A DNA stretch of 64,000 nt from Thermodesulfobacteriota bacterium (GCA_035625415.1 DASPPQ010000068.1:23590-87589), one strand, 5' to 3'. Positions 11,163 to 33,670 are shown, numbered from the stretch's first letter. Translations and numbers: made by a program. Notes: generated from the sequence alone by a model not told the origin.

Positions 11163-12296
11163 CTATATTCTAATCAATTCATATTCCCTTGTGCCCATCC
11201 CGATTTCTTCGGCATAGGCAAGCTGAATACTCCAGTTAACCAGCGGATAAATCGCTCTAAATTTGTCTTCTCCGGGTTTCCAGGCTCCTGTGAGTTTGGA
11301 AGTTCGGTTTCCTTCCTGCCCATTCACCAAATCAACCGACGCCTGATCGATGGCAACCGGGTCCTCGGAAGAAAGGATCCCGATATCGTTGACAATCGGT
11401 GTATCAGAATATCCGTAGCAGTCACAGGCGGGAGAGATTTGAGTGAGAAAGTTTAAGTGAAGCGTCTTTCCCTTTTTCTTCTGGATAACTCCATAGGCAT
11501 ACTCCACCATTTTCTTTTGAAAAATAGGGACGCTCTCGTTCCATTGGATTTCAATAGCCCCTGAAGAACAGGTGAGGATGCATTCTCCGCACCCGATGCA
11601 TTTTTTGGGATCGATAAAGGCAATACCCTGTTTGGTTTCGACCTCCGACTGCGGTGGCCGCATCGAGATGGCTTCCTGTGAGCACCGGCTAAGACAGGCC
11701 TTACATCCCTTGCAGGCTTTGCCCTTGACTTGGGGTGAGATATTTGAATGCTGACTCAGCTTTCCTTCACGGCTGGCGCACCCCATTCCCAGATTCTTCA
11801 AGGCTCCTCCGAACCCGGACAATTCATGACCTTTGAAATGGGTGACCGCAATCAGTCCATCCGCCATATAGATCTCTCGGGCGATGGAGACTGTTTTGAA
11901 AATGGGTTTGTCAATCCGAACCTTGACGGCACTATTGCCTCTCAAACCATCGGCAATCAGGATAGGGGCATTCACGACAGACTCTGTGAACCCGTTTTCA
12001 AAAGCGGTGATTAGATGGGAGACCGCTTCACCCCGAGTTCCAACATAGAGGGTGTTGGCATCGGTTAAGAAAGGCTTCCCTTTATATTGTTTGACTCGAT
12101 CCACCACCCTTCGTAAAAAGATGGGTCGAACAAAGGCCGTATTTCCTTTCTCCCCAAAATGGAGTTTAATCGCCACCAAATCCTTCTCCCGGATCTTTCC
12201 CTTCAGATCAGCCCGATCCAGAAGGATGTCCAATTTGTCCAGGAGGGTTTTCCCGGGTTCAACCCTGAGATCCGAAAAAAAGACAGAACTCTCCAT
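11163..12296 (-). CDS. DUF362 domain protein with 4Fe-4S dicluster insertion (second paralog)
   Basis: 377 aa. CKGCKACLSRC and CIGCGECILTC motifs. Core resembles the protein at 8541-9761. Confidence 0.5.
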   Translation of the reverse strand: MESSVFFSDLRVEPGKTLLDKLDILLDRADLKGKIREKDLVAIKLHFGEKGNTAFVRPIFLRRVVDRVKQYKGKPFLTDANTLYVGTRGEAVSHLITAFENGFTESVVNAPILIADGLRGNSAVKVRIDKPIFKTVSIAREIYMADGLIAVTHFKGHELSGFGGALKNLGMGCASREGKLSQHSNISPQVKGKACKGCKACLSRCSQEAISMRPPQSEVETKQGIAFIDPKKCIGCGECILTCSSGAIEIQWNESVPIFQKKMVEYAYGVIQKKKGKTLHLNFLTQISPACDCYGYSDTPIVNDIGILSSEDPVAIDQASVDLVNGQEGNRTSKLTGAWKPGEDKFRAIYPLVNWSIQLAYAEEIGMGTREYELIRI

Positions 12297-17130: not shown

Positions 17131-17139
17131 AATAAATAA

Positions 17140-17291
17140 AAAGGCCGAATTGAAATAAGCGGGGGAACCAGTTTTTAGGGGTGAATTCTAGACATCTAGA
17201 GAGGATATCCCTTAATCCTAACCCGTCAGCTAACTCCGCAGGCGACTAAGGGAGAGAATCGAACGCAGGGGATCCTCCTCTGCTTTTTTTT
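17140..17291 (+). promoter_or_regulatory. Candidate c-di-AMP (ydaO/kimA-class) riboswitch leader with intrinsic terminator, upstream of kdp operon
   Basis: Contains GCGGGGGAACC, GGGGTGAAT and ACCCGTCAGCTAACTCCGCAGGCG, recalled from memory as c-di-AMP riboswitch signature blocks. Ends in hairpin gcagggg-atcct-cctctgc plus T8. Confidence 0.5.
17265..17291 (+). terminator. Rho-independent terminator/attenuator hairpin + T-run in kdp leader
   Basis: 7-bp GC-rich stem (one G-U pair), 5-nt loop, followed by tttttttt. About 195 nt upstream of the first kdp-associated ORF. Confidence 0.6.
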
Positions 17292-21803: not shown

Positions 21804-21873
21804 TTTGAAGTGAAGCAAGCCTGCCAATCCACCCCGGTCCAGACCGCGAGCGGTGCAGGCAAGGAGGCATAAT

Positions 21874-22893
21874 ATGTTACAAACCCTTTGGAAGAGCATT
21901 TTGTTGCTGTTATTTGCTGTGGTCATCTGTTGCGTTCTTTACCCGCTGGTTTTATGGGTGATCGGACAGGCCGCCTTTTCCTTTCGGGCTAACGGCAGTC
22001 TGCTGAGAGGTCCCGACGGCAAACCGGTGGGATCGCGGCTTATTGCACAACCCTTTACCAAGGACGAATACTTTCAGCCCCGCCCCTCTGCAGCGTCTTA
22101 CGATGCGTCTGCCTCTTCCTCGTCATCCTTGTCCGCCTCCAACTACGCGCTGCGCGACCGGGTCGCCCGGGCACTTGGTCCAATTGTGAAATATCGAAGT
22201 GGCCCCAAAGTCAGACAGCCTGTGGCACTGGACATCGAAAACTGGTTTCAAAAGGATATATTCCAAGGCAAGCCTCACATCGTGGCTCAGTGGGCGGACC
22301 TGCACAACGGCCTGGCGCAAGCGTGGGTCAAGGCGGACCCCAAGAATGGCGCATATGTAGACGGTTGGACAAAGGCTCATCCAGCTATAGTCGCCCAATG
22401 GATCAAGGACAATCCCGGTACGCCTCAACCAAAGGCCGATGATTTGGCCGTCGTGTTCTTTGTGAACTTCTCCACGGAGAACCCCGGTAGATTCCCTTCT
22501 CTTGTCAGCCGCACAGGAGCCGATGGCAAGACCAAAACAACGATTGAACCGGTCAAGGAGGGGTCCGATATTCAATCGATCTTCTTTGACATGTGGCGGC
22601 AGGATCATCCCGAGGCTGACCTTCAGGACGTTCCCGGCGATCTGGTAACCACTTCCGGTTCCGGGCTCGATCCCCATATTACGCTTCAAAACGCCGAGTT
22701 TCAATTGGATCGGATCGCCTCGAAATGGGCCGCCAACTTAAAACGCGATCCGAAGGTAGTCCAAAAAGAGATTGAGGAGATATTGCAGGAAAACGCTTCG
22801 GCCCCATGGTTTGGGCTCGCGGGTGAGAAGCTCGTGAATGTCCTTGAGGTCAATCTCGAACTTCGGAGGCGGTACGGAGCACCATCGCCATAA
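21874..22893 (+). CDS. kdpC: Potassium-transporting ATPase subunit C with a roughly 150-aa internal insertion
   Basis: N-terminus (VLYPLVLWVIGQAAFSFRANGSL) and C-terminus (TTSGSGLDPHITLQNAEF...VNVLEVNLELRR) match KdpC. The middle segment (about residues 95-245) has no counterpart in 190-aa KdpC proteins. Confidence 0.75.
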   Translation: MLQTLWKSILLLLFAVVICCVLYPLVLWVIGQAAFSFRANGSLLRGPDGKPVGSRLIAQPFTKDEYFQPRPSAASYDASASSSSSLSASNYALRDRVARALGPIVKYRSGPKVRQPVALDIENWFQKDIFQGKPHIVAQWADLHNGLAQAWVKADPKNGAYVDGWTKAHPAIVAQWIKDNPGTPQPKADDLAVVFFVNFSTENPGRFPSLVSRTGADGKTKTTIEPVKEGSDIQSIFFDMWRQDHPEADLQDVPGDLVTTSGSGLDPHITLQNAEFQLDRIASKWAANLKRDPKVVQKEIEEILQENASAPWFGLAGEKLVNVLEVNLELRRRYGAPSP

Positions 22894-23024: not shown

Positions 23025-23087
23025 GTCCTTTGGTGCTATAAATGGCGCTGTGTATAGAACAGGGAAGAATTAATGGGGGAGGGGAGG

Positions 23088-24383
23088 ATGAAAAAGAGAT
23101 TAATAGGTTTGAGTCTGGCGGTGTTGATAATCCTCACATTTGGAATGAATGCACACGCCGAAGAGGCATCTTCATCGACTTCAGACAAAGAGACTCAGGA
23201 GGTAAAGCCGTCGGAGGCACCGGCACCGCCACCCGGACTGTTGATGAGTCTTTTGGGAAAGGCGGGATTGGCCCAACCTTTGGACAAGGCCGGGATTAAC
23301 ATCTACGGCTACATCGAAGGCGGTTACTTTCATGACTTCCGTGTGCCGGGGACTGGCCATGGTCCAACCTTCATCGGGTTTAATAGCTACAAGGACGCAG
23401 TTACCCTTGACAAGATCAGTCTGAATGTGGAGCGCACGGTTGATCCGGCCAAGAAGCAGTTTGACTTCGGGTTCCACGTGGAAGGTATTTATGGGACGGA
23501 TGCCGCGTTCGTCCATTCGAATGGGCTCTTTGACTCACAGACGGGCCGCTATCAAGGAGACCTTCTCCAAGCCTATGTGGACCTGACCCTTCCCGACCTG
23601 CCGGTAAGAATCCGCGCGGGCAAGTGGCTCGCACTGGAGGGCTTTGAGCAATTTAGCGCCAACATCTACGGGGCCTTCGGCGATCCGGCCAGGGCCCTCT
23701 ATTCCTATAGCTACCAGTATCTCTACGCCGAGCCTTTTACTCAGACGGGCATTCTTGTCACCACGGTGCTCAGCCCGCAGTGGTCATTTGACGCCGGCTT
23801 CACGCGGGGCTGGAACCAGTCGGTTAAAGACGCCAATGGTGTCCTGGACTTTTTGGGCCGCATCACGTTTACGCCCAGCGACAAGACCTCCATCGTTCTC
23901 GTTATGACGGAAGGCCCAGAATTTCCGGCGGGTTTCGGACACAATCTGCCTAAAGGCGACCCCCACCACTGGTGGACCGCGTTGGACCTAGTGGTCACCC
24001 AGAAAATTACTGACAAATTGAGCCTGGGCTTGGGTGGTGATTACGTCTATGCTTCGCAGATCCCCGGATTGACAGGCGGTTCGAAGCAGTGGGGAGGTGT
24101 GGCTGGCTATGCGAGCTATGCATTTGGTCCGCATTTCACGTTCAATACCCGACTGGAGTGGTACAGAGATGCGGCCAACGGCTTCTCCGACGGGGCGCCC
24201 GTCAGGGCCAACTATTATGAGGCCACGGTGGGTGTAGCCATTAAGCCTTTCCCGAATGACAAATTCCTCTCGAAGTGGCTGTTCAGACCGGAAGTGCGTT
24301 ACGACCGCGCTGATCACTCGGTCTTCGACGGGGGAGACAGAAATCAGATCACCTTCAGCGTGGATGCCCTCTTCACCTTTTAG
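23088..24383 (+). CDS. Outer-membrane beta-barrel (porin-like) protein with signal peptide
   Basis: MKKRLIGLSLAVLIILTFGMNAHA signal. Alternating amphipathic beta-strand pattern. C-terminal aromatic FTF. Inserted between kdpC and kdpD. Confidence 0.5.
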   Translation: MKKRLIGLSLAVLIILTFGMNAHAEEASSSTSDKETQEVKPSEAPAPPPGLLMSLLGKAGLAQPLDKAGINIYGYIEGGYFHDFRVPGTGHGPTFIGFNSYKDAVTLDKISLNVERTVDPAKKQFDFGFHVEGIYGTDAAFVHSNGLFDSQTGRYQGDLLQAYVDLTLPDLPVRIRAGKWLALEGFEQFSANIYGAFGDPARALYSYSYQYLYAEPFTQTGILVTTVLSPQWSFDAGFTRGWNQSVKDANGVLDFLGRITFTPSDKTSIVLVMTEGPEFPAGFGHNLPKGDPHHWWTALDLVVTQKITDKLSLGLGGDYVYASQIPGLTGGSKQWGGVAGYASYAFGPHFTFNTRLEWYRDAANGFSDGAPVRANYYEATVGVAIKPFPNDKFLSKWLFRPEVRYDRADHSVFDGGDRNQITFSVDALFTF

Positions 24384-24549
24384 GATCGGTCTTAGATCCC
24401 ATATCCGATCTTATCCTTTAGGTTATAACCCCTTTCTGGTATAATACGTGACGTTTCTGCGGGGCTTGTTTACATGCGGCGTGTAGATTAAGCTAAAGAG
24501 CGGCTCCGTTGGAATTGGATGATCCAGAATAAGGAGACGGGCTTAGAGG

Positions 24550-26601
24550 ATGGAAATACAGAAAAACGATAAAGATGCCGCAAGACCAGATCCAGACGCC
24601 CTCTTAAAGGAAGTTCAGCGTGAGGAAGAAAAAAGGGGGAGATTAAAAATATTTCTCGGTTATGCGCCGGGCGTGGGAAAAACTTACGCAATGCTTAACG
24701 AAGCACGCATATTGAAGAAAAGGGGGGAAGATGTTGTGGTCGGCGTTGTGGAGACTCACGGCCGCGTCGAAACGGAGGAATTACTTAAAGGACTGGAGGT
24801 AATTCCACGACGGGGTGCGGAATATCAGGGTATTGTCCTCGAAGAATTGGATATCGATGCCATACTCGCACGAAAGCCTTCGGTTGCTTTACTAGATGAA
24901 CTTGCCCACAGTAATGCCCCGGGCAGCCGCCATCCGAAGCGATACCAGGATATTGAGGAATTACTCGACAACGGCATTGATGTCTACACAACGGTGAACG
25001 TGCAACACTTCGAAAGCCTGAACGATGTCTTGGAAAAGATTACGGGAATTCGGACGCAGGAGACATTGCCCGATACCTTTTTAGATCGCGCTGACGAGGT
25101 TCAGGTGATTGACGTCCCTCTGGAAGAGCTCTTTGAGAGGCTGAAAGAAGGAAAGGTATACATTCCCAAGCAGGCCGAATTGGCGATGCAGAATTTCTTT
25201 CAGCGGGGCAATCTTGTTGCCTTGCGGGAACTCATGCTCACCCATGCAGCCCACAAAATGGATACCGAGCTTCTGAATTATATGAGGGCAAAGGCTATTT
25301 CCGGCCCCTGGCCAGCGGGGGAGAGAGTGATGGTCTGCATCGCCCCGAGTCCTTATGCAAAACAACTGCTACGCAAGGGTTACCAGATTGCGAAAGATGC
25401 GCATGCCGAATGGTATGCCGTGCATGTTTCCACACCTGCCCTGAAGGAGATGTCGGATAAGGACAAGGCTTACATCGCCGAGGCATTGAATCTCGCAGAA
25501 GAATTGGGGGCAAAAATTGCAACCCTTTCCGGAACGGATGTCGCAAATGAAATCGTCCGTTTTGCCCGTGAATATAATATTAACCATATCGTCATCGGAA
25601 AGCCTCTTCACTCGATGTTGCTTGGATTCTGGAAGGGCTCACCAGCCTCCCGCCTGCTGCATACTCCGAGCGAGTTTGAGCTGCATCTGATCACGCCAAC
25701 CGTTGAAAAGAGAGAGATAGAGGTAAAGCCAACCCCCGAACGGCTTACGCTCAATCCCAAAGAGTATGTCCTGACCGCCCTTATGGTCGTTGCTGTGACC
25801 TTATTGAACTTTTTCCTTCAGGGATTCGTCAATCGCATCGCTCTGGTTTACATCTACTTGATTGTGACGATTGCGGCTGCCCTGCTTTTCGGCACCGGGC
25901 CTTCGGTATTTTCCTCGATCATCAGCCTGCTCACTTTCGATTTTTTCTTTACAGAGCCGAAATACAGCTTCACCACGTACCATCCGCATGACGTCATTAA
26001 TATCTTAGTCTTCTTCCTCACCTCAGTCATTGTTGGTCAGCTTGCCAAGATAACCAAAAGGCAGAATCTTCTTTTGCAGCTTCGCCTTAGGCGAGTGACC
26101 CTCATTGAAGAGATAAGCAAGGAGTTCTTGATGCTCCCTCCCGTTGAACAACTTGTGGGGGGAATGGTTCAAAATTCGAGCGAATGGGAAAATGTTTTGA
26201 CCCTGTTTCGTACCACTGTTCTCGATCACATCAGTCATATTGCGATTAAGTACCTGTCGAGGATTATGGATGCACCCTCCTTTGTCCTTTTTATCGGGAG
26301 GGGCAAGAGACTCCAGATCTGGGCTCGAAGCAGACCGGATATTGACCTCACGCCTAATGAGATGGCGGTTGCCGAGTGGACCTATGCACACGGTGAGCCA
26401 GCTGGAGCTGGGACGCAGACGCTGCCGAGCGTTAAGGTCTTCTTTGTCCCTATGAAAACGCTTGAAGAGACCATTGGTGTCATCGGGATTCAGTTCGATT
26501 TTAAGAATCTTCTGCTTGATCAGCGGCGGCTTCTGGGTGTCATCTCCAATCTCTCAGCCCTTGCTGCTTCAAGATGGGTCAAACCATGGTCTGCCAGCTA
26601 A
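24550..26601 (+). CDS. kdpD: KdpD-type osmosensor lacking the histidine-kinase module (KdpD N-terminal domain + USP + TM + GAF only)
   Basis: LKIFLGYAPGVGKTYAML...VVGVVETHGR...LDELAHSNAPGSRHPKRYQDIEELL matches the KdpD N-terminal domain. A USP-like segment, four predicted TM helices and a GAF-like segment follow. No HisKA/HATPase region. No kdpE in the window. Confidence 0.8.
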   Translation: MEIQKNDKDAARPDPDALLKEVQREEEKRGRLKIFLGYAPGVGKTYAMLNEARILKKRGEDVVVGVVETHGRVETEELLKGLEVIPRRGAEYQGIVLEELDIDAILARKPSVALLDELAHSNAPGSRHPKRYQDIEELLDNGIDVYTTVNVQHFESLNDVLEKITGIRTQETLPDTFLDRADEVQVIDVPLEELFERLKEGKVYIPKQAELAMQNFFQRGNLVALRELMLTHAAHKMDTELLNYMRAKAISGPWPAGERVMVCIAPSPYAKQLLRKGYQIAKDAHAEWYAVHVSTPALKEMSDKDKAYIAEALNLAEELGAKIATLSGTDVANEIVRFAREYNINHIVIGKPLHSMLLGFWKGSPASRLLHTPSEFELHLITPTVEKREIEVKPTPERLTLNPKEYVLTALMVVAVTLLNFFLQGFVNRIALVYIYLIVTIAAALLFGTGPSVFSSIISLLTFDFFFTEPKYSFTTYHPHDVINILVFFLTSVIVGQLAKITKRQNLLLQLRLRRVTLIEEISKEFLMLPPVEQLVGGMVQNSSEWENVLTLFRTTVLDHISHIAIKYLSRIMDAPSFVLFIGRGKRLQIWARSRPDIDLTPNEMAVAEWTYAHGEPAGAGTQTLPSVKVFFVPMKTLEETIGVIGIQFDFKNLLLDQRRLLGVISNLSALAASRWVKPWSAS

Positions 26602-26659
26602 ATTGCTTGACCGGTAAACGCCACGCAAGCCTCAGCTTGCAGCCGAAGGAGAATAATCT

Positions 26660-27868
26660 ATGAGCGACTTCTATCAAGCCGGGGTCATCACCACACTCCA
26701 TCGATTGAAGAAGATTAATCTGGAACGCATGGAAATGGAACTGGAGTTCTATTCACGATACAATCCGATTGCGCTGATACTTCCCTCCCTCTCTTCAGAG
26801 TTAAAGGAGAACGCTCTCAAGACAATCGTCTCAGAGATTCAAAAGGTTAAATACATCAGTGAGGTGATTGTCACCTTAGGGAGAGCAAATGAAAAAGATT
26901 TTGCCTCTGCCAAGGAATTTTTCTCTGTACTTCCACAGCGGACGATCGTCATCTGGAATGATGGGCCAAGGATTCATTCCCTTTACGATATCCTGACCAA
27001 GAATGATATTTCAGCAGGAGAAGATGGAAAAGGACGCTCTACCTGGATGGCCTTTGGTTATGTCCTGGCAAACGAAAAGAGCAACGTCATCGTGCTTCAC
27101 GATTGCGACATCCTAAGTTACGATCGGGAGTTTTTAGCTCGATTGTGCTACCCAGTGGTCAACCCTAATCTGGGCTATGAGTTCTGTAAGGGATATTATA
27201 GTCGCGTTACAAACAAGATGCATGGGAGGGTCACCCGGCTCTTTGTGACCCCTCTCATCCGATCTCTGGAGCGACTTTTAGGATACCTCCCCTTCTTGGT
27301 TTATCTCGACAGTTTTCGATACCCATTGGCAGGAGAATTTTCAATGATTACGGATTTGGCCCGAATTAACCGTATTCCCTGGGATTGGGGACTGGAGGTT
27401 GGAGTTCTATCAGAGGTCTTTCGTAACTGCTCCTTGAGAAGGATCTGCCAGGTCGATTTGACGGATAATTATGAACATAAACACCAGGAGCTTTCCACAG
27501 AAGATCCCAATAGAGGCCTTCTAAAAATGTCCATCGATATTGCGAAAAATCTTTTTCGAAACTTAGCCAGTGAGGGCATTGATCTTTCCGAAAGCCTGCT
27601 GAAAACATTGAAGGCCACTTATCTAAGAACGGCTCAAGAAACTATTACAAAATATCATGATGATGCTGCCATTAATGGCCTCGATTTTGATCGTCATGAG
27701 GAAGGGGTGGCCGTAGAAACCTTTACCAAGGGAATCGAACTGGCAAGTAAAGCCTTCGTGGAAGACCCTCTAAGCATTCCCATCATCTCCGCTTGGAACA
27801 GGGTTACCTCCGCGATCCCGGACTTTTTGGAGAGGCTGAAGAATGCTACCGACGACGACAACACGTAA
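26660..27868 (+). CDS. mpgS: Mannosyl-3-phosphoglycerate synthase (GT55-like)
   Basis: 402 aa. YDILTKNDISAGEDGKGRSTWMAFGYVLA and VIVLHDCD resemble the Pyrococcus/Thermus MpgS motifs ([30 protein letters not shown]). The stop overlaps the start of the phosphatase gene. Confidence 0.6.
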   Translation: MSDFYQAGVITTLHRLKKINLERMEMELEFYSRYNPIALILPSLSSELKENALKTIVSEIQKVKYISEVIVTLGRANEKDFASAKEFFSVLPQRTIVIWNDGPRIHSLYDILTKNDISAGEDGKGRSTWMAFGYVLANEKSNVIVLHDCDILSYDREFLARLCYPVVNPNLGYEFCKGYYSRVTNKMHGRVTRLFVTPLIRSLERLLGYLPFLVYLDSFRYPLAGEFSMITDLARINRIPWDWGLEVGVLSEVFRNCSLRRICQVDLTDNYEHKHQELSTEDPNRGLLKMSIDIAKNLFRNLASEGIDLSESLLKTLKATYLRTAQETITKYHDDAAINGLDFDRHEEGVAVETFTKGIELASKAFVEDPLSIPIISAWNRVTSAIPDFLERLKNATDDDNT

Positions 27869-28682
27869 ACTCGTGATCTTTACAGATCTGGATGGCACTT
27901 TACTCGATCGGGATACCTATTCATTTGAACCCGCCTTGCCTGCCCTTAATCTAATTAAACAGAAAGGTATTCCTCTTATTCTTTCGAGCAGCAAGACCGG
28001 GAACGAGATTGAGCTATTCCAAAAACAATTGGAAAATAGCCACCCCTTTGTTTCCGAAAATGGAGGAGCGATCTTCGTCCCCAAAGATTATTTTTCCTTT
28101 CCGTTCCATTACGACAGAGCATTGGGGGATTATTTCGTTATGGAATTGGGGGCGCCTTATTCCATCATTACTGAAGTCTTAGATTCGATTAGAAAAGAGA
28201 CGGGGATTTCAATAAAAGGCTTCTCTGATTTCACCGAGGAGGAACTGTCTTCCCTTTGCGGGTTGGGCCAGAAAGAGGCGGCGTTTGCTAAGAAGAGAGA
28301 GTACGATGAGCCATTCGTGATCGAAGGCGAAGAGAAAGAATCCGAAATAGTGAAAAGAAAGATAAAAGACAGGGGGATGCACTATGCTTGGGGGGGGAGG
28401 TTTCATCATATCTTCGGAAAAAACGACAAAGGAAAGGCCGTTGAGATTTTGAAAGAACTCTATGAGACTCAATTTTTCTCAATTTTTACGGTGGGGATTG
28501 GAGATAGCCTGAACGACCTGCCCATGTTGTCAATAGTCGATTATCCAATCTTTCTTAAAAAGAAGGCTGATCTCCTACCAGAAACGCTATCGCCGATTCA
28601 AAATGTCAGGGTCATAAATGGGGGAGGTTCCGAGGCCTGGAACGAAGTAATTCTGAGCGTAGTCCACGCGTTAGAAATTTGA
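27843..28682 (+). CDS. mpgP: Mannosyl-3-phosphoglycerate phosphatase (HAD-IIB, YedP family)
   Basis: LVIFTDLDGTLLD...GIPLILSSSKTGNEI...GIGDSLNDLPML is the characteristic MPGP-family pattern. Confidence 0.75.
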   Translation: MLPTTTTRKLVIFTDLDGTLLDRDTYSFEPALPALNLIKQKGIPLILSSSKTGNEIELFQKQLENSHPFVSENGGAIFVPKDYFSFPFHYDRALGDYFVMELGAPYSIITEVLDSIRKETGISIKGFSDFTEEELSSLCGLGQKEAAFAKKREYDEPFVIEGEEKESEIVKRKIKDRGMHYAWGGRFHHIFGKNDKGKAVEILKELYETQFFSIFTVGIGDSLNDLPMLSIVDYPIFLKKKADLLPETLSPIQNVRVINGGGSEAWNEVILSVVHALEI

Positions 28683-28702
28683 CCGGAGAGTACCCCGCAA
28701 TC

Positions 28703-28722
28703 CCCGCCCTTCAGGGCGGGGT
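28703..28722 (+). terminator. GC-rich hairpin after mpgP (ccccgccc ttca gggcgggg), no T-run
   Basis: Perfect 8-bp stem 20 nt after the stop. A second hairpin gctccgccc tttg gggcggagagc lies at about 28770-28793. Confidence 0.3.
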
Positions 28723-28803
28723 CAGGGGGTACAATATAAAAGAAACAGCATGCCGGAAAGCTCCGCCCTTTGGGGCGGAGAGCTTTACTTCGAAGGTAAA
28801 CCG

Positions 28804-30264
28804 ATGGGGTTCTTTTATTGGTTCATCTTTCTAATGACCGTTGCAATATTTATCTTTGCGATCCAAAATTCAACTGCTCCTACTGTTGCAATGAAATTTC
28901 TCATATGGAGATTCGATGCCTCCCTGATCTACACCTTTTTAGGATCGATCGGAGCGGGCATTCTCATGGCCTTTATCTTCTGGATTCCAAGAGCTATCAA
29001 GGTATCCATTCAATCGAAGGAGTTAAAAGAGCGGATAGAAAACCTTGAAAAAGTTTTATACGGACCTGCCGCCCCCGAAGAGGCACAAACCCAGAGAGTT
29101 ATGAAAAAAGCGATCGTTATTCCTGTCTATCTCAGATTCAATCAACCGGAGGAATTACCTCATTTAGAGGAACTGAGGTTGGCGAAGAGGGCAATCGAAA
29201 GCTTGAAGATATTGGAGGACCAGGATTTCACCCTCATCCTTCTTGTCTGTTTTGATTCGACTGGTGGAGAAGAGGAGGTTTCCTTGCTGGAGATGGACAG
29301 ATTCGTCAGAAAGGAGGTTCATAATCTATGGGAAGGGAAAACCATACTTTTCTCATCCCATCATCTGAAAATGTTAAGGAGAAATTTAGATCAAAGAGAT
29401 TTCAGAGGATTCTCTTCCCTTACGGATCTGAAGGGATTTTCAAAGATTCGTAACGTTGGCCTCCTTCTTGCTCAAGCGCTCTCGGTGGATGTGGCTATCT
29501 TCATCGATAATGACGAAGTCTTGGAAGCCCCGCGCTATTTAAAGGTCGCCTGTGAATATTTAAACGAGAGGTGGAATGGTAAGGTTGTGGCCGGAAAAGG
29601 AGGATTTTACGTTAATCCGGATGGGACGATCCTTCTCCCTCCGAGACGGCTTTGGTGGGATTTTCTCTGGAACAAGACGAAATGGATGAATCGGGTTTGG
29701 GAGAGAATCCTCTCATCTAAAGACCGACTCGTCTTTTCGCCGATCCTTTTGGGTGGAAACCTCGTCCTGCATTGTGACCTTTTTCGAAGCGTCCCCTTTG
29801 ACCCATATATTCCGAGAGGAGAGGATATCGATTATCTCATCAATGCCAGCCAGTTTGGGCTATCTCTCTTATTTGATCGAGAGCTCCAGATTAAACACCT
29901 TCACCCCGAAAGATCGGAAGCGTTCTTTCAGGAGGAGTTGCGGGGCGATATTGAACGGTTTCTCTATGAGCGAGAAAAGGTGAAAAGAGGGCTGTGTGTC
30001 GATCTCAACCCTTACCCAGGATATTTTTTGAGGTGGACCCTCTACCCCAGAGCGATTCTCACCTCTCTGTTCCTTAGTCTCAATTATTTGGGAAAAAGAG
30101 AATGGAAAAAGGCAAAGGAGTGTCTCAGCTGCGTGAGGCTCCTTTTTAAGAAGAGGGACGGAGACGGGTTGAACTATCTAAAATTTAGAGCAGATTGGGA
30201 GAGGGTGATGGTGGAAGTTCAAAGAAATTGGATGGTGGAAATATTGAAGAGTTGTTGGGTATAG
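28804..30264 (+). CDS. LapA-like (DUF1049) membrane anchor fused to a GT-A fold glycosyltransferase-like domain
   Basis: N-terminus FYWFIFLMTVAIFIFAIQNSTAPTVAMKFLIWRF...SIGAGILMAF is LapA/YciS-like. It is followed by IVIPVY and a FIDNDEV (DxD-like) segment. The start is placed at Met-19 of the ORF track because the upstream codons lie in a hairpin. Confidence 0.4.
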   Translation: MGFFYWFIFLMTVAIFIFAIQNSTAPTVAMKFLIWRFDASLIYTFLGSIGAGILMAFIFWIPRAIKVSIQSKELKERIENLEKVLYGPAAPEEAQTQRVMKKAIVIPVYLRFNQPEELPHLEELRLAKRAIESLKILEDQDFTLILLVCFDSTGGEEEVSLLEMDRFVRKEVHNLWEGKTILFSSHHLKMLRRNLDQRDFRGFSSLTDLKGFSKIRNVGLLLAQALSVDVAIFIDNDEVLEAPRYLKVACEYLNERWNGKVVAGKGGFYVNPDGTILLPPRRLWWDFLWNKTKWMNRVWERILSSKDRLVFSPILLGGNLVLHCDLFRSVPFDPYIPRGEDIDYLINASQFGLSLLFDRELQIKHLHPERSEAFFQEELRGDIERFLYEREKVKRGLCVDLNPYPGYFLRWTLYPRAILTSLFLSLNYLGKREWKKAKECLSCVRLLFKKRDGDGLNYLKFRADWERVMVEVQRNWMVEILKSCWV

Positions 30265-30279
30265 ATTCTGAGAGGGTGG

Positions 30280-31524
30280 ATGGAAGAGTCGTTTCGGACT
30301 CAGTTAGAAGAGGCTCAAGAGGCCGATATCTTAATCGGGATTCCGAGCTACAATAATGCCCGAACGATCGGTCATGTGGTGCTTGCGGTGATGGCCGGTC
30401 TTGCCAAATACTTTCCAAATGTCAGGGCAGTGATGGTCAACTCGGACGGTGGGTCATCCGACGGAACTCAAGACGAGGTCAGGAGGGTTCAGATCGAAGA
30501 TTTTAAGACCATTCTTACCTCCCATCCCGTCTATCCGATTCAGAAGATTGTTACTCCCTATCATGGAATCCCCGGAAAAGGAAGCGCCTTCCGCACCATT
30601 TTTGAGGCCGCCAGGATTCTAAAGGCAAAGGCCTGTGCAGTGGTCGATTCGGATTTGAGGTCGATCACCCCGGAATGGATGGAACTTCTTCTCAGGCCTA
30701 TTTACGAGGAGGGATTTGACTACGTCGCCCCTCTTTATGCCCGGCATAAATTCGATGGGACCATCACCAATAGTATCGTTTATCCTTTGACACGGGCGCT
30801 CTACGGGAAAAGAATTCGTCAGCCGATTGGAGGGGATTTTGGTTTTTCTGGAAAGCTGGCAGAATTCTATTTGACCAGAGATGTTTGGGAAACCGATGTC
30901 GCCCGGTTCGGAATTGATATCTGGATGACCACACTCGCCGTTGCCGAAGGATTTAAGGCATGTCAATCCTATCTCGGTGCTAAAATCCATGATGCGAAAG
31001 ACCCTGGAAGCGATCTCGGGCCGATGTTTACTCAAGTCGTCTCTTCTGTCTATCGTTTGATGGAGGAATATCAAACTCTTTGGAGAGGGGTTAAAGAATC
31101 GCAACCCATTCCAAGTTTTGGGTTTCATTATGAGGTGGGATTGGAGCCGATTTCTGTAAATGTAGAAGGGATGATAGGAAACTTCAGGCAAGGGGTTCGG
31201 GATCTGGCTGAAATTTGGGAAAAGGTGGTGCTTCCTGAAACAGTCCTATGGCTCGAGTCCATTGCACGGCTATCAGACGGAGCATTCTCCTTTCCCCAAG
31301 ATTTATGGGTTCGTTTAATCTATGATTTCGCTCTAGCCTATTACAAACGCGCGGTCCACCGCGAACATTTGCTGAAATCGATGATCCCCCTTTATTTAGG
31401 CCGGGTGGCGTCATTCGTTAAAGAAAATCAGAAAAGTTCTGCGGAGGAGGTCGAAAGAGAGATCGAATCCCTTTGCCAGGCCTTTGAACAGATGAAGCCT
31501 TATCTCATAGAACGCTGGGCCTGA
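30280..31524 (+). CDS. GT-A fold (family 2-like) glycosyltransferase
   Basis: ILIGIPSYNNARTIGHVV, NSDGGSSDGT and CAVVDSDL (DxD) motifs. 414 aa. Confidence 0.5.
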   Translation: MEESFRTQLEEAQEADILIGIPSYNNARTIGHVVLAVMAGLAKYFPNVRAVMVNSDGGSSDGTQDEVRRVQIEDFKTILTSHPVYPIQKIVTPYHGIPGKGSAFRTIFEAARILKAKACAVVDSDLRSITPEWMELLLRPIYEEGFDYVAPLYARHKFDGTITNSIVYPLTRALYGKRIRQPIGGDFGFSGKLAEFYLTRDVWETDVARFGIDIWMTTLAVAEGFKACQSYLGAKIHDAKDPGSDLGPMFTQVVSSVYRLMEEYQTLWRGVKESQPIPSFGFHYEVGLEPISVNVEGMIGNFRQGVRDLAEIWEKVVLPETVLWLESIARLSDGAFSFPQDLWVRLIYDFALAYYKRAVHREHLLKSMIPLYLGRVASFVKENQKSSAEEVEREIESLCQAFEQMKPYLIERWA

Positions 31525-31536
31525 AAAGAAGAGGAG

Positions 31537-32256
31537 GTGAAGGATATGGGAGAGGTGTGGAAAGTGACCATCACAGATTCCTTGAACAGATTTTTGGGCA
31601 AAGTCATCGTATTCTTACCCAATCTACTGGCGATGATCACCATCCTCGTCGTGGGGTTTTTCGTCGCCTGGATCTTCAAGAAGCTCCTTTTTCGTTTCCT
31701 GAAGGCCATCCAGTTTGACAAGGTGAGCAGACAATGGGGGTTGGCCGATGTCTTGTCCAAAGGAGGGGTGACTTATTCTCCTGCCAACCTTTTGAGCCGT
31801 TTCTTCTATTGGGTGATCGTTCTCGTTACGCTCATTTTAGGGATCAATGCTCTTGAAGTTGCAGCCACTCAAAACTTGATCACCCAATTCTTTAATTACC
31901 TCCCCCACCTTTTTGCTGCAGTGACTATCCTTGTTATCGGATATTTGATTGCCATCTTTCTGGGCCAGGCAACCCTCATTGCAGCGGTTAACGCCCAAAT
32001 GGAATCAGCCAAACTCCTGAGTCGATTGGTCCGATGGTTCTTTATCATTTTTTCCCTGAGCATGGCCCTCTATCAATTAGGCATTGCAGAAAAGGTGATC
32101 ACCGCAGCCTTCTCCGTTATCTTTGGGGGGATTGTTCTTGCTCTTGCCATAGCCTTTGGATGGGGAGGGAGAGAATTAGCCAAGGATCTTCTTGAGAGAC
32201 TGTATAAAAGAAAGGAGAAGGGTGGCGAAGGACCAGACCATATTTCTCATATCTGA
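31537..32256 (+). CDS. Membrane protein with repeated conserved-TM-helix segments (MscS-family N-terminal-like; mechanosensitive channel-related)
   Basis: Four long hydrophobic helices with repeated ...LL..I..LVVGF.VA.I/LGINALEVAATQNL pattern. No cytoplasmic MscS beta-domain. Confidence 0.35.
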   Translation: MKDMGEVWKVTITDSLNRFLGKVIVFLPNLLAMITILVVGFFVAWIFKKLLFRFLKAIQFDKVSRQWGLADVLSKGGVTYSPANLLSRFFYWVIVLVTLILGINALEVAATQNLITQFFNYLPHLFAAVTILVIGYLIAIFLGQATLIAAVNAQMESAKLLSRLVRWFFIIFSLSMALYQLGIAEKVITAAFSVIFGGIVLALAIAFGWGGRELAKDLLERLYKRKEKGGEGPDHISHI

Positions 32257-32259
32257 AAA

Positions 32260-32340
32260 ATGCGCCGTCTCCCGGGTGTCATCTCCAATCTATCCGCCCT
32301 CGCTGCTTCAAGATGGGTGAAGACCTGGACTGTGAAATAA
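32260..32340 (+). repeat. Direct duplicate of the 3' end of kdpD (orphan 26-codon fragment with ATG and stop)
   Basis: atgcgccgtctcccgggtgtcatctccaatctatccgccctcgctgcttcaagatgggtgaagacctgg... encodes MRRLPGVISNLSALAASRWVKTWTVK*. The kdpD C-terminus is ...RRLLGVISNLSALAASRWVKPWSAS* at 26524-26601. The 60-nt core is about 85% identical. Confidence 0.7.
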
Positions 32341-32407
32341 GGGGAAAATCGGAATCATTATTCTATTTCTTTGGCCTCCGCCGCTTCAACCAGCATTTGC
32401 GTGCCTT

Positions 32408-33670
32408 CTACACAAAAAATACGAAGGTAACGATAACAAAGAGAGGGACGAGAATGCCACATGACCAGAGCATATATCCGAAGAAAGAAGGAATGTTGAT
32501 CTTCTGGTGCTCACAAATCACCTTGACCATGAAATTCGGGCCATTCCCAATATAGGAATTTGCTCCCATAAAAACCGCTCCGACCGAAATCGCCTCCAAA
32601 TATTTGATTGGGATTCCGATGATCTCTTTCGGCAACCCGGTTGCCTGAGCAAACCCCTGTGCCAGGCTCAAAAATGTTACATAAGTGGGGGTATTATCGA
32701 GGAAGGAAGAGAGTCCTCCGGTTGTCCAGAAAAAGTGCCAGGGAAGACGAACTCCGAATTCAGCTCCCCGTGCCTCTAAAATGAGAAGTGCAGGGACCAT
32801 CGTTATAAATATAGCTGCGAAGAGAACGGCCACTTCAATGATTGGGGCATAGTTAAACTCATTTCGCTCGCGAATCTTTTTGGGTGTGACAACAAGGGAA
32901 AAGACTGATAACGCGACCATCACGCCTTCCCTAATGGGGGTATCGAAAAATATGACACTTAAGAGCACGCCGATGATGAATAGAATGTTTATTCTTCCGT
33001 GGAGGGAAATAGGTTCCACCATCTTCTTATCCAGCCTTATTGCTTCCGGGGACTCCCTCTTCCAGAAATGAAAATCAATAAAATAAAAGACGATGAGAAT
33101 GAGCGTCATCATGAATATCCAGTAAGGGAAGAGTCTTAGAGTCCAGAAAAACGGGACTCCTCTCAAGTAACCCATGAATAAGGGGGGATCACCAAGAGGA
33201 GTGAGACATCCGCCAATATTGCAGACGATAAAGATAAAGAAAATCGGGATGTGGGCGATCAGCCGCCTTTCGCTGTTCGTCCTTAAGATAGGTCTTATCA
33301 AAAGCATCGCAGCCCCGGTGGTCCCGAATATATTGGCTATGATCCCACCGATCAAAAGGAAAAGGGTATTATGTAAGGGAGTGGCCTCGATATCGCCGCT
33401 TAAGAATATTCCTCCGGAGATAATAAAGAGAGAGGCGAGCAAAATGATAAAGGAGAAATATTCCTTAATTTCATGAATCAATGGGTTGAAATTATTATAC
33501 TGCCAGAAAAGAATAACCACGGGCAGAGAGAGAATTCCAGAGACGATCGCTTTATTCCGATTGCTGTCCCAGAAACGGCTATGGGTAAGCGGTAAAATGG
33601 CAATAGAAAGTAAAAGAAGAACAAAAAAAGACACGGTCCAGAATGGCAGAATTTGTCCTAAATTTTCCAT
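32408..33670 (-). CDS. ArsB/NhaD-superfamily ion transporter (putative Na+/H+ antiporter)
   Basis: 420 aa with about 12 TM helices. GDPPLFMGYLRGVPFFWT and NGPNFMV motifs are typical of NhaD/CitMHS-type permeases. Confidence 0.55.
   Translation of the reverse strand: MENLGQILPFWTVSFFVLLLLSIAILPLTHSRFWDSNRNKAIVSGILSLPVVILFWQYNNFNPLIHEIKEYFSFIILLASLFIISGGIFLSGDIEATPLHNTLFLLIGGIIANIFGTTGAAMLLIRPILRTNSERRLIAHIPIFFIFIVCNIGGCLTPLGDPPLFMGYLRGVPFFWTLRLFPYWIFMMTLILIVFYFIDFHFWKRESPEAIRLDKKMVEPISLHGRINILFIIGVLLSVIFFDTPIREGVMVALSVFSLVVTPKKIRERNEFNYAPIIEVAVLFAAIFITMVPALLILEARGAEFGVRLPWHFFWTTGGLSSFLDNTPTYVTFLSLAQGFAQATGLPKEIIGIPIKYLEAISVGAVFMGANSYIGNGPNFMVKVICEHQKINIPSFFGYMLWSCGILVPLFVIVTFVFFV

What the first reader, a model, noticed from the sequence alone, without database searches (positions are those of the whole stretch)
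26521..32340. About 70-bp direct duplication of the kdpD 3' end brackets a 5.7-kb osmoprotectant gene block
The last about 25 codons of the kinase-less kdpD, including its stop codon (26524-26601, ...RRLLGVISNLSALAASRWVKPWSAS*), recur at 32260-32340. The second copy is an orphan ATG-initiated fragment (MRRLPGVISNLSALAASRWVKTWTVK*) placed right after the stop of the MscS-like gene. Between the two copies lie mpgS, mpgP, two GT-A glycosyltransferases and a conserved-TM-helix membrane protein. Flanking direct repeats that duplicate a gene's 3' end are the footprint of site-specific integration, or of a duplication-mediated insertion, so this block was probably acquired as a unit at the end of kdpD. 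No integrase remains inside it.
Basis: seen in the sequence. Interest (0 to 1): 0.75.

Follow-up and report, generated by a model that had tools for sequence, protein, structure and literature searches.

The report
Orphaned kdpD tail marks recombination scar
A 79-base second copy of the end of the potassium-sensor gene kdpD is the leftover tail of an older kdpD, stranded when a five-gene osmoprotectant operon was spliced in by ordinary recombination between related bacteria, so it is a tidy but ordinary genome scar.

Summary
The repeat is real. 26523-26601 and 32262-32340 match at 59/71 in the core, in frame, both ending in a stop codon (E = 3e-16 within the window).

Copy 2 is the orphaned 3' end of a former kdpD. 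The spacer after its stop is homologous to the spacer after the intact kdpD stop in relatives where kdpD directly faces the convergent NhaD-type (CitMHS_2) gene. These are the empty sites (L004, L119).

Copy 1, its downstream spacer and the five-gene block match relatives where kdpD is followed by the same block with no second copy (L032, L129, L001, L130/131).

The right junction lies 5-7 nt after the MscS-like gene's stop and shares only a GC with kdpD. The orphan's ATG comes from the block's own 3' flank.

Fifteen identified genes around the locus include no integrase or transposase, and there is no tRNA and no terminal inverted repeat. About 75 other copies of the block sit in unrelated contexts without kdpD repeats. 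kdpD itself is a recombination mosaic.

Best reading: recombination anchored by homology on one side and joined illegitimately on the other, not site-specific integration. Which DNA partner was resident is unresolved. Ordinary; low interest.

The parts
24550..26601 (+). kdpD, kinase-less form (KdpD-Usp-DUF4118-GAF, 683 aa). It is a recombination mosaic.
   Evidence: Pfam and NCBIfam. Identity to L129: 78-82% over 24501-24950 (which includes the kdpD 5' end), 98-100% for 24951-25850, 87-91% for 25851-26450 and 97% for 26451-26600, which covers the tail.
26523..26601 (+). Copy 1: the functional kdpD 3' end, last 26 codons plus stop.
   Evidence: It is 76/78 identical to the kdpD end of L032 and 75/78 to that of L129, both block-linked kdpD genes.
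26602..26659 (+). kdpD-GpgS spacer. This is native to the kdpD-block arrangement, not an insertion joint.
   Evidence: Homologous to the same spacer in L001, L032 and L129.
26660..27868 (+). GpgS-like glycosyl-3-phosphoglycerate synthase (402 aa).
   Evidence: NF040724 GpgS_Meth, E = 2e-108, 363 bits, below the 700 cutoff. Distant match to GT81 GpgS/MpgS structures in the PDB.
27843..28682 (+). Mannosyl/glucosyl-3-phosphoglycerate phosphatase family (HAD-IIB, 279 aa).
   Evidence: TIGR02461 scores 256.9 bits, above its 244.35 cutoff.
28750..30264 (+). 504-aa protein with an N-terminal LapA domain. The rest is uncharacterised.
   Evidence: Pfam LapA_dom only, even at E <= 1. No PDB relative.
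30280..31524 (+). GT2-type glycosyltransferase (414 aa), weakly GpgS-like.
   Evidence: PF00535, E = 1.3e-5. PRK13915, E = 2.7e-12, below cutoff.
31537..32256 (+). MscS-like membrane protein that has only the conserved-TM-helix module (239 aa). It is the last gene of the block.
   Evidence: PF05552. In L001 and L032 a full MscS gene (344 aa) follows it; that gene is absent here.
32257..32263 (+). Illegitimate junction. AAAATGC is the block's own 3' flank. GC (32262-32263) is the only microhomology with kdpD.
   Evidence: The window and L032 are identical through TGAAAAATGC and then diverge. From G 32262 the window follows kdpD codons (Q)RRL.
32262..32340 (+). Copy 2: orphaned 3' end (last 26 codons plus stop) of a former kdpD. 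It is a pseudogene relic, and its ATG at 32260 is accidental.
   Evidence: It encodes the consensus KdpD tail except for one L-to-P change, and 11 of its 16 differences from copy 1 are at third codon positions.
32341..32407 (.). Native post-kdpD spacer between kdpD and the convergent transporter gene.
   Evidence: Homologous to the sequence right after the kdpD stop in L004, L002 and L003, and to the sequence next to CitMHS_2 in L110.
32408..33670 (-). NhaD-type Na+/H+ antiporter (CitMHS_2, 420 aa). In empty-site relatives it is the neighbour of kdpD.
   Evidence: Pfam PF16980, E = 5e-149. kdpD and CitMHS_2 are convergent and adjacent in L004 and L119.

Best explanation
Copy 2 is a relic, not an attachment site. 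Two arrangements coexist in related Thermodesulfobacteriota:
- (A) kdpD followed by a five-gene operon: GpgS-like synthase, phosphoglycerate-sugar phosphatase, LapA-domain protein, GT2 glycosyltransferase and an MscS-like protein.
- (B) kdpD directly facing the convergent NhaD-type transporter gene.

The window is a recombinant of the two. It carries arrangement A up to 5-7 nt past the stop of the last block gene. It then carries arrangement B from 77-79 nt before the kdpD stop onward.

Favoured route: DNA of type A entered a type-B genome. It paired by homology inside kdpD on the left, and its non-homologous right end was joined illegitimately at a GC dinucleotide inside the resident kdpD. 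This is homology-facilitated illegitimate recombination. A single crossover followed by deletion would give the same product.

The result replaced most of the resident kdpD with the donor's kdpD 3' part plus the block. It stranded the resident gene's last 26 codons in front of the transporter gene.

Shown: the two parental arrangements, the junction position, the native context of each copy, mosaicism in kdpD, and the lack of recombinase genes.

Inferred: the order of events, which partner was resident, and the enzymology.
For: (1) Flanks. The sequence after the copy-2 stop (32341-32407) is homologous to the sequence after the intact kdpD stop in L004, L002 and L003. The sequence after the copy-1 stop is homologous to the kdpD-GpgS spacer of L001, L032 and L129.

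(2) Empty sites. kdpD and CitMHS_2 are adjacent and convergent in L004 and L119.

(3) Donor-like arrangement. kdpD-block occurs without any second copy in L032, L129, L001 and L130/131. Copy 1 is 96-97% identical to the kdpD ends of L032 and L129, whereas copy 2 is at most 83% identical to any sampled kdpD end.

(4) Junction. The window equals L032 through TGAAAAATGC and then switches to kdpD, with GC the only shared bases.

(5) Codon pattern. Eight of 9 differences in codons 2-21 are at third positions (P = 0.001), and 11 of 16 overall (P = 0.004). Copy 2 still encodes the consensus tail. The copies therefore diverged as parts of two functional kdpD genes, not after an in-place duplication.

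(6) kdpD as anchor. Identity to L129 jumps from 78-82% to 98-100% near 24900-24950, while the DNA upstream of kdpD is unrelated. The block is 91-99% identical to L129 and, at its two ends, 93-98% to L032, compared with 75-90% for the kdpC/BBP2 backbone.

(7) No mobility genes. The five block genes fill 26660-32256, with spacers of at most 67 nt. Fifteen identified genes from Tyr_deacylase to HD_5 include no integrase or transposase; one 74-aa gene has no family hit. There is no tRNA and no terminal inverted repeat.

(8) Precedent. Homology-facilitated illegitimate recombination is defined in PMC3240628, and orphaned 3' ends are attributed to it in T6SS and Rhs loci in PMC5361080.
Against: - The junction microhomology is only 2 nt, below the 3-10 bp typical of experimentally observed events (PMC3240628).
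- kdpD carries several recombination tracts of different ages, so the left crossover of the founding event cannot be identified. The high identity to L129 may reflect later allelic exchange.
- No sampled kdpD allele matches copy 2 closely, so the resident lineage before the event is not documented.
- L110 has the block next to CitMHS_2 with a different junction. It keeps about 20 nt of block flank and at most 10 nt of kdpD. This could mean a larger relic eroded independently in each lineage (a two-step history), or a second independent event.
- The direction of transfer is not resolved.
Confidence: 0.6

Rival explanations
1. Same kind of scar, but the other history. The block was already resident after kdpD, inherited vertically as in L032 or L130. 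Then one of two things happened. Either DNA from a kdpD-CitMHS_2 relative, anchored by homology in the tetrapyrrole-methylase or HEAT genes on the right, replaced whatever followed the block. Or a second complete kdpD copy downstream of the block was deleted down to its last 77-79 nt.
For: - L032, the closest relative on the left backbone (kdpC 87%, BBP2 85%, kdpD 92% aa), already has the block after kdpD.
- L130/131 show kdpD-block-CitMHS431-TrkH-TrkA followed by the window's own right-hand backbone, so a replacement of the right flank needs only one event.
- L110's different junction fits independent erosion of a longer relic.
- The interval contains other gene-end relics: a CitMHS_2 3' remnant in L002 and L003 and a 115-codon fragment in L005.
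Against: - The kdpD 3' part plus block has much closer relatives (L129 mostly 91-100% nt, L032 93-98%) than either flanking backbone (75-90% nt). This marks it as the recently moved piece.
- No locus fetched here carries two full-length GAF-ended kdpD genes.
Confidence: 0.25
2. Site-specific integration. The block is an integrative element whose attP mimics the kdpD 3' end, the two copies are attL and attR, and the integrase has been lost or acts in trans.
For: A direct repeat that duplicates a gene's 3' end and restores the reading frame is the classical footprint. The copies share identical runs of 18 and 17 nt.
Against: - No integrase gene or remnant.
- Five relatives have the same kdpD-block left side with no attR.
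- About 75 other copies of the block sit in more than 60 different flank types without kdpD fragments.
- The left edge of copy 2 is a 2-nt microhomology join at a non-conserved point.
- The block's right end is cut relative to L001 and L032, where a full MscS gene follows.
- Copy 1 matches the donor-type allele throughout and copy 2 throughout does not. No crossover is visible inside the repeat.
Confidence: 0.05
3. In-place tandem duplication of the kdpD end, followed by drift. Alternatively, the 26-codon ORF is a functional micro-protein kept by selection.
For: The reading frame, the stop position and an ATG are all preserved, and only one private amino-acid change is present.
Against: - Each copy sits in the native flank of a different arrangement.
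- The differences are overwhelmingly synonymous, as expected for two functional genes that diverged before the join.
- The ATG derives from the block's flank.
- No Shine-Dalgarno-like motif precedes the ATG (read directly from the sequence).
- No significant RNA structure is predicted.
- The relic is absent from all other lineages examined.
Confidence: 0.03

Closest known systems
Homology-facilitated illegitimate recombination (HFIR). Described experimentally in Acinetobacter baylyi, Streptococcus pneumoniae and Pseudomonas stutzeri, and in E. coli conjugation (PMC3240628).
   Same: - One end of the incoming DNA recombines by homology (here within kdpD, which is visibly mosaic), and the other end is joined illegitimately.
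- The insertion is coupled to loss of resident DNA.
- No dedicated recombinase is involved and no target-site duplication is made.
   Different: - The junction microhomology is 2 nt here, against the usual 3-10 bp.
- The inferred insert is much larger than the roughly 1 kb typical in experiments: 5.7 kb of block plus imported kdpD sequence.
- This case is inferred from comparative genomics in an uncultured bacterium, with no experimental evidence and an unresolved direction of transfer.
Orphaned 3' gene ends left by displacement in Rhs, CDI and T6SS effector-immunity loci (PMC5361080 and the references it cites).
   Same: A conserved gene body serves as the recombination anchor. New downstream cargo arrives with a new 3' end, and the old 3' end is pushed downstream and survives as an orphan fragment.
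   Different: - Here the anchor is a sensor gene and the cargo is an osmoprotectant operon.
- There is one orphan, not an array.
- The orphan has no associated immunity-like function and no sign of being reused.
Integrative genomic islands with att repeats that duplicate the 3' end of a tRNA or protein gene.
   Same: A direct repeat of a gene's 3' end brackets a multi-gene block that is absent from related genomes.
   Different: There is no integrase, no conserved att core, and no recurrence of the repeat in other copies of the block. The left 'junction' is native gene order in relatives, and the right junction is a microhomology join.
Two-step glucosylglycerate/mannosylglycerate pathways (GpgS or MpgS plus a phosphatase), as in Methanococcoides burtonii and Persephonella marina, and the first steps of mannosylglucosylglycerate synthesis (PMC3736172).
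   Same: A GpgS-type synthase gene overlaps a phosphatase gene of the mannosyl-3-phosphoglycerate phosphatase family.
   Different: - The synthase scores below the NCBIfam equivalog cutoff.
- The operon has three further conserved genes of unknown role: a LapA-domain protein, a GT2 glycosyltransferase and an MscS-like TM module.
- The second glycosyltransferase is GT2-type, whereas MggA is assigned to GT4 (PMC3736172).

Membership tests
Site-specific integrative element (att-flanked island) | Integrase or recombinase gene in or next to the element | tested here: not met
   The five block genes fill 26660-32256, with spacers of at most 67 nt. Precomputed Pfam hits for 15 of the 16 complete genes in the identical contig L120 show no integrase or transposase; the sixteenth, a 74-aa gene, has no family hit.
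Site-specific integrative element (att-flanked island) | The same attL/attR repeat bounds other integrated copies of the element | tested here: not met
   Only contigs identical to the window carry two copies. L032, L129, L001 and L130/131 have kdpD-block with one copy. About 75 other block loci have no kdpD sequence.
Site-specific integrative element (att-flanked island) | Crossover within a shared core: attL is host-left plus element-right, and attR is element-left plus host-right | tested here: not met
   Copy 1 matches the block-linked allele over its whole length (76/78 to L032). Copy 2 differs from that allele over its whole length (62/78). No switch point is visible.
Homology-facilitated illegitimate recombination product | A homologous anchor on one side, with evidence of exchange in it | tested here: met
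   kdpD is mosaic. Identity to L129 is 78-82%, then 98-100%, then 87-91%, then 91-97%, and the upstream DNA is unrelated.
Homology-facilitated illegitimate recombination product | A non-homologous junction with short microhomology (usually 3-10 bp) | tested here: inconclusive
   The junction maps to 32262-32263 with only GC shared. That is shorter than the typical range quoted in PMC3240628.
Homology-facilitated illegitimate recombination product | Insertion coupled to deletion of resident DNA | tested here: inconclusive
   Only the last 77-79 nt of the second kdpD remain. This is consistent with replacement of the rest, but a two-step route (duplication, then deletion) gives the same result.
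Homology-facilitated illegitimate recombination product | RecA dependence and uptake of linear DNA | not testable with these tools
   The organism is uncultured and known only from metagenome assemblies.
Transposon or IS-mediated insertion | Transposase gene, terminal inverted repeats and a short target-site duplication | tested here: not met
   No inverted repeat lies at the block ends. The best pairs are 20-28 nt at 71-85% complementarity and scattered. There is no transposase.
Glucosylglycerate/mannosylglycerate two-step pathway | GpgS or MpgS synthase equivalog | tested here: inconclusive
   NF040724 GpgS_Meth, E = 2e-108, but 363 bits against a 700 cutoff. Distant GT81 matches in the PDB.
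Glucosylglycerate/mannosylglycerate two-step pathway | Cognate phosphatase of the mannosyl-3-phosphoglycerate phosphatase (MPGP) family | tested here: met
   TIGR02461 scores 256.9 bits, above its 244.35 cutoff.

The most novel reading that the evidence does not exclude
The 3' end of the kinase-less kdpD is a preferred docking point for osmoadaptation cassettes in this clade. The interval between kdpD and the tetrapyrrole-methylase gene holds, in different relatives, the glucosylglycerate-type operon, TrkAH, a histidine kinase with response regulator, NhaD-type and ArsB/CitMHS transporters, and MscS. On this reading these cassettes are captured by a dedicated mechanism, possibly trans-encoded, that recognises the conserved kdpD tail, and the window preserves one of its footprints.
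Probability: 0.05. Interest if true: 0.6.

Novelty: new member of a known kind. Interest (0 to 1): 0.22.

Why it matters
This is a clean natural example of how a bacterium gains a whole operon from a relative without any mobile-element machinery. Both parental arrangements, the exact junction and the stranded gene tail are all recoverable from metagenomes.

It shows that kdpD and the region downstream of it act as a recombination-prone slot for osmotic-stress genes in peat and wetland Thermodesulfobacteriota. It also shows that a conserved, uncharacterised five-gene glucosylglycerate-type operon is exchanged frequently among these lineages.

It warns against reading every repeat of a gene's 3' end as an att site. 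It does not reveal a new mechanism.

Tried and rejected
- **Locating the crossover against L001-L004.** Sliding-window identity of kdpD against these four relatives gave flat profiles of roughly 76-95% with no visible breakpoint. Closer relatives (L129, L032) were needed.
- **Finding the source allele of copy 2.** KdpD proteins with the exact tail ...AASRWVKTWTVK exist (P0126, P0145-147). Their genes are followed by MarR, not CitMHS_2, and are only 64-65/78 identical to copy 2 at the DNA level. The source was not found.
- **Composition.** Block GC is 0.44-0.49, against a window mean of 0.489 and 0.44 for CitMHS_2. This is not anomalous. The kdpABC-BBP2 genes (0.54-0.56) are the outliers. Composition is uninformative for transfer between close relatives.
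- **RNA structure or terminator in copy 2.** Folding z-scores are 0.58 and -0.82, no terminator-like site was found, and the only Rfam hit in the window lies elsewhere.
- **L110 as a second relic.** The apparent kdpD remnant is at most 10 nt, and a similar decamer occurs in unrelated spacers of L130. Only the post-kdpD spacer is securely homologous.
- **The GT2 gene as MggA** (mannosylglucosyl-3-phosphoglycerate synthase). Rejected, because MggA is assigned to GT4 (PMC3736172).
- **The 504-aa protein as a glycosyltransferase.** No support from Pfam at E <= 1 or from PDB sequence searches.

Full report
**Observation**

The repeat is real. The repeat finder reports 26523-26593 versus 32262-32332, 71 nt at 83% identity and 5739 nt apart. 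Nothing else in 20-40 kb comes close. blastn of the kdpD end against the whole window finds only this second hit, with E = 2.9e-16. Both copies run in frame to a stop codon, at 26599-26601 and 32338-32340.

Gene content:
- kdpB, then kdpC (346 aa), then a BBP2 porin gene.
- A kinase-less kdpD (KdpD-Usp-DUF4118-GAF, 24550-26601).
- A five-gene block: a GpgS-like synthase; a phosphatase of the mannosyl-3-phosphoglycerate phosphatase family that passes its equivalog cutoff; a 504-aa LapA-domain protein; a GT2 glycosyltransferase; and a 239-aa protein with the MscS conserved-TM-helix module.
- Copy 2.
- A convergent CitMHS_2 (NhaD-type) transporter gene.

**What the relatives show**

A scan of species-representative genomes with KdpD returned 29 loci, mostly Thermodesulfobacteriota and Syntrophaceae metagenome-assembled genomes. 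Mapping the window's proteins onto them gave the following:
- L004: kdpB-kdpC-kdpD directly followed by the convergent CitMHS_2 gene and then the window's own right-hand genes.
- L002 and L003: kdpD followed by the tetrapyrrole-methylase gene, with only a roughly 100-nt remnant of CitMHS_2.
- L001: kdpD followed by the whole block, but behind a different kdpAB operon and with no second copy.

A short-query blastn found one kdpD-tail copy per locus wherever it matched (11 of the 29 genome loci) and never a second copy.

A metagenome scan with the last block gene returned 80 loci. Two are identical to the window and carry both copies. L032 has kdpC-BBP2-kdpD-block followed by a full MscS gene and no copy 2. 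The rest carry the same five-gene unit without kdpD. Their neighbouring ORFs fall into more than 60 clusters.

Further look-ups added:
- L119, a second empty site.
- L129, kdpD-block with kdpD 94% identical at the protein level.
- L130 and L131: kdpD-block-CitMHS431-TrkH-TrkA followed by the window's right-hand backbone.
- L118, with the block inverted on the far side of CitMHS_2.
- L110, with the block convergent with CitMHS_2 across a 94-nt spacer.

The window's own arrangement is identical in six contigs compared at the DNA level, from several samples (L030, L031, L120-L123). The kdpD look-up counted ten contigs carrying the identical protein.

**Anatomy of the two copies**

Alignment shows that the spacer after the copy-2 stop (32341-32407) is homologous to the spacer after the intact kdpD stop in L004, L002 and L003. 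The spacer after the copy-1 stop is homologous to the kdpD-GpgS spacer in L001, L032 and L129. Copy 2 is therefore the end of a kdpD that once directly abutted the transporter gene. Copy 1 belongs to the kdpD-block arrangement.

Copy 1 is 76/78 identical to the kdpD end of L032 and 75/78 to that of L129. Copy 2 is only 61-65/78 identical to any sampled kdpD end.

At the right junction, the window and L032 are identical through the MscS-like stop plus AAAATGC (32254-32263) and then diverge. From G 32262 the window follows kdpD codons. The only overlap is GC. The ATG of the 'orphan ORF' is part of the block's own 3' flank, since AAATGC is also present in L001. Its reading frame is a coincidence.

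**Evidence that the copies come from two functional genes**

Copy 2 still encodes the consensus KdpD tail, RRL(L>P)GVISNLSALAASRWVKTWTVK. The unmutated version occurs in several database proteins.

Of the 16 nucleotide differences between the copies in codons 2-26, 11 are at third positions (P = 0.004). In the conserved codons 2-21 the count is 8 of 9 (P = 0.001). The divergence therefore accumulated under protein-level selection in two separate kdpD genes. It did not arise by decay after an in-place duplication.

**Evidence for homologous exchange in kdpD and in the block**

Against L129, the DNA upstream of kdpD is unrelated. Identity then runs as follows:
- 24501-24950 (including the kdpD 5' end): 78-82%.
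- 24951-25850: 98-100%.
- 25851-26450: 87-91%.
- kdpD tail through the LapA-domain gene: 91-99%.

Against L032, the kdpC/BBP2 backbone is 75-90% identical. The segment 26201-27999 and the GT2 3' part through the MscS-like gene are 93-98%. The phosphatase gene is only 60-73%, although it is 90-92% identical to L042.

So the kdpD 3' part plus block has much closer relatives than either flank, and it is itself a patchwork. This is what frequent homologous exchange between related lineages produces. It also makes kdpD a plausible recombination anchor.

**Evidence against dedicated mobility machinery**

- The block genes fill the interval, with spacers of at most 67 nt.
- The gene list for the identical contig L120 shows no integrase, transposase or recombinase family among the 15 genes with a family hit, from Tyr_deacylase to HD_5.
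- There is no tRNA gene in the window.
- No terminal inverted repeats bound the block.
- Composition is unremarkable: block GC 0.44-0.49 against a window mean of 0.489.
- Copy 2 shows no significant RNA structure or terminator.

**Mechanism**

The window is a recombinant of two arrangements that both exist in relatives. The join is homologous on one side and illegitimate on the other.

The favoured version is homology-facilitated illegitimate recombination. DNA carrying the kdpD 3' part plus the block pairs within the resident kdpD, and its free end joins at a GC 77-79 nt before the resident stop. In experimental systems this process needs homology at one end only, and it usually leaves a 3-10 bp microhomology at the junction (PMC3240628). 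The same mechanism has been proposed for orphaned 3' gene ends in T6SS and Rhs loci (PMC5361080).

Three caveats apply:
- The microhomology here is only 2 nt.
- The multiple recombination tracts in kdpD prevent identification of the founding crossover.
- The mirror-image history, or a two-step history (a second kdpD copy later deleted), gives the same final sequence. L110's different junction hints at independent erosion or a second event.

Site-specific integration is not supported. The kdpD-block side is native gene order in five relatives without an attR. No crossover is visible within the repeat. No other copy of the block carries the repeat.

**Verdict**

It is a new instance of a known kind of event and of low general interest.

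Noticed in passing
window 17133-17259 (+): A c-di-AMP riboswitch (RF00379, 98 bits, E = 5e-22) lies upstream of kdpA. The kdp operon with the kinase-less KdpD therefore appears to be under c-di-AMP control.
   Followed up: no
window 21853-22893 and 23073-24383: KdpC is 346 aa, against about 190 aa normally. Two KdpC-matching stretches are separated by an insert of about 140 aa. An OmpL-like BBP2 beta-barrel porin gene sits between kdpC and kdpD. This 'type 1' operon has higher GC (0.54-0.56) than the rest of the window. In several relatives a different kdpAB (37% and 57% aa identity) precedes an 81-90% identical kdpD.
   Followed up: partly
window 24951-25850: A 900-nt stretch inside kdpD is 98-100% identical to metagenome contig L129 (Ga0120198_0010274). 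The flanking parts of the gene are 78-91% identical, and the DNA upstream of kdpD is unrelated. This looks like a very recent homologous recombination tract.
   Followed up: yes
window 28001-28400: The phosphatase gene is only 60-73% identical to L032 and L001 but 90-92% identical to L042, while the neighbouring genes are 94-98% identical to L032. The block is mosaic internally.
   Followed up: partly
window 26660-32256; L030-L109, L118, L129-L132: The five-gene unit (GpgS-like, MPGP-like phosphatase, 504-aa LapA-domain protein, GT2, MscS TM-helix protein) is conserved in order in about 80 fetched loci with many different neighbours. The 504-aa protein and the second glycosyltransferase have no assigned role, so the solute made may not be plain glucosylglycerate.
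   Followed up: partly
L002/L003 about 12050-12160; L005 18247-18591: Other gene-end relics occur in the same interval. L002 and L003 keep a roughly 100-nt remnant of the CitMHS_2 3' end where that gene is otherwise deleted. L005 keeps a 115-codon CitMHS_2 fragment that is 92% identical at the protein level. The stretch from kdpD to the tetrapyrrole-methylase gene is a hotspot of illegitimate rearrangement, carrying TrkAH, a histidine kinase with response regulator, ArsB/CitMHS, MscS or MarR in different relatives.
   Followed up: partly
window 32341-32407: The spacer after the kdpD stop (GGGGAAAATCGGAATCATTATTC...) is conserved in L004 and L110, and in L002 and L003, where the convergent transporter gene has been lost. 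It contains a weak GGAAT/ATTC hairpin followed, on the minus strand, by a T-run. It may be a shared terminator.
   Followed up: partly
L001 17688-18722; L032 10810-11838: In L001 and L032 the 239-aa TM-helix protein is followed by a separate 344-aa gene that carries the MscS channel domains (TM helices 2/3, beta-domain and C-terminal domain). The channel may therefore be split over two genes, and the window keeps only the first half.
   Followed up: no
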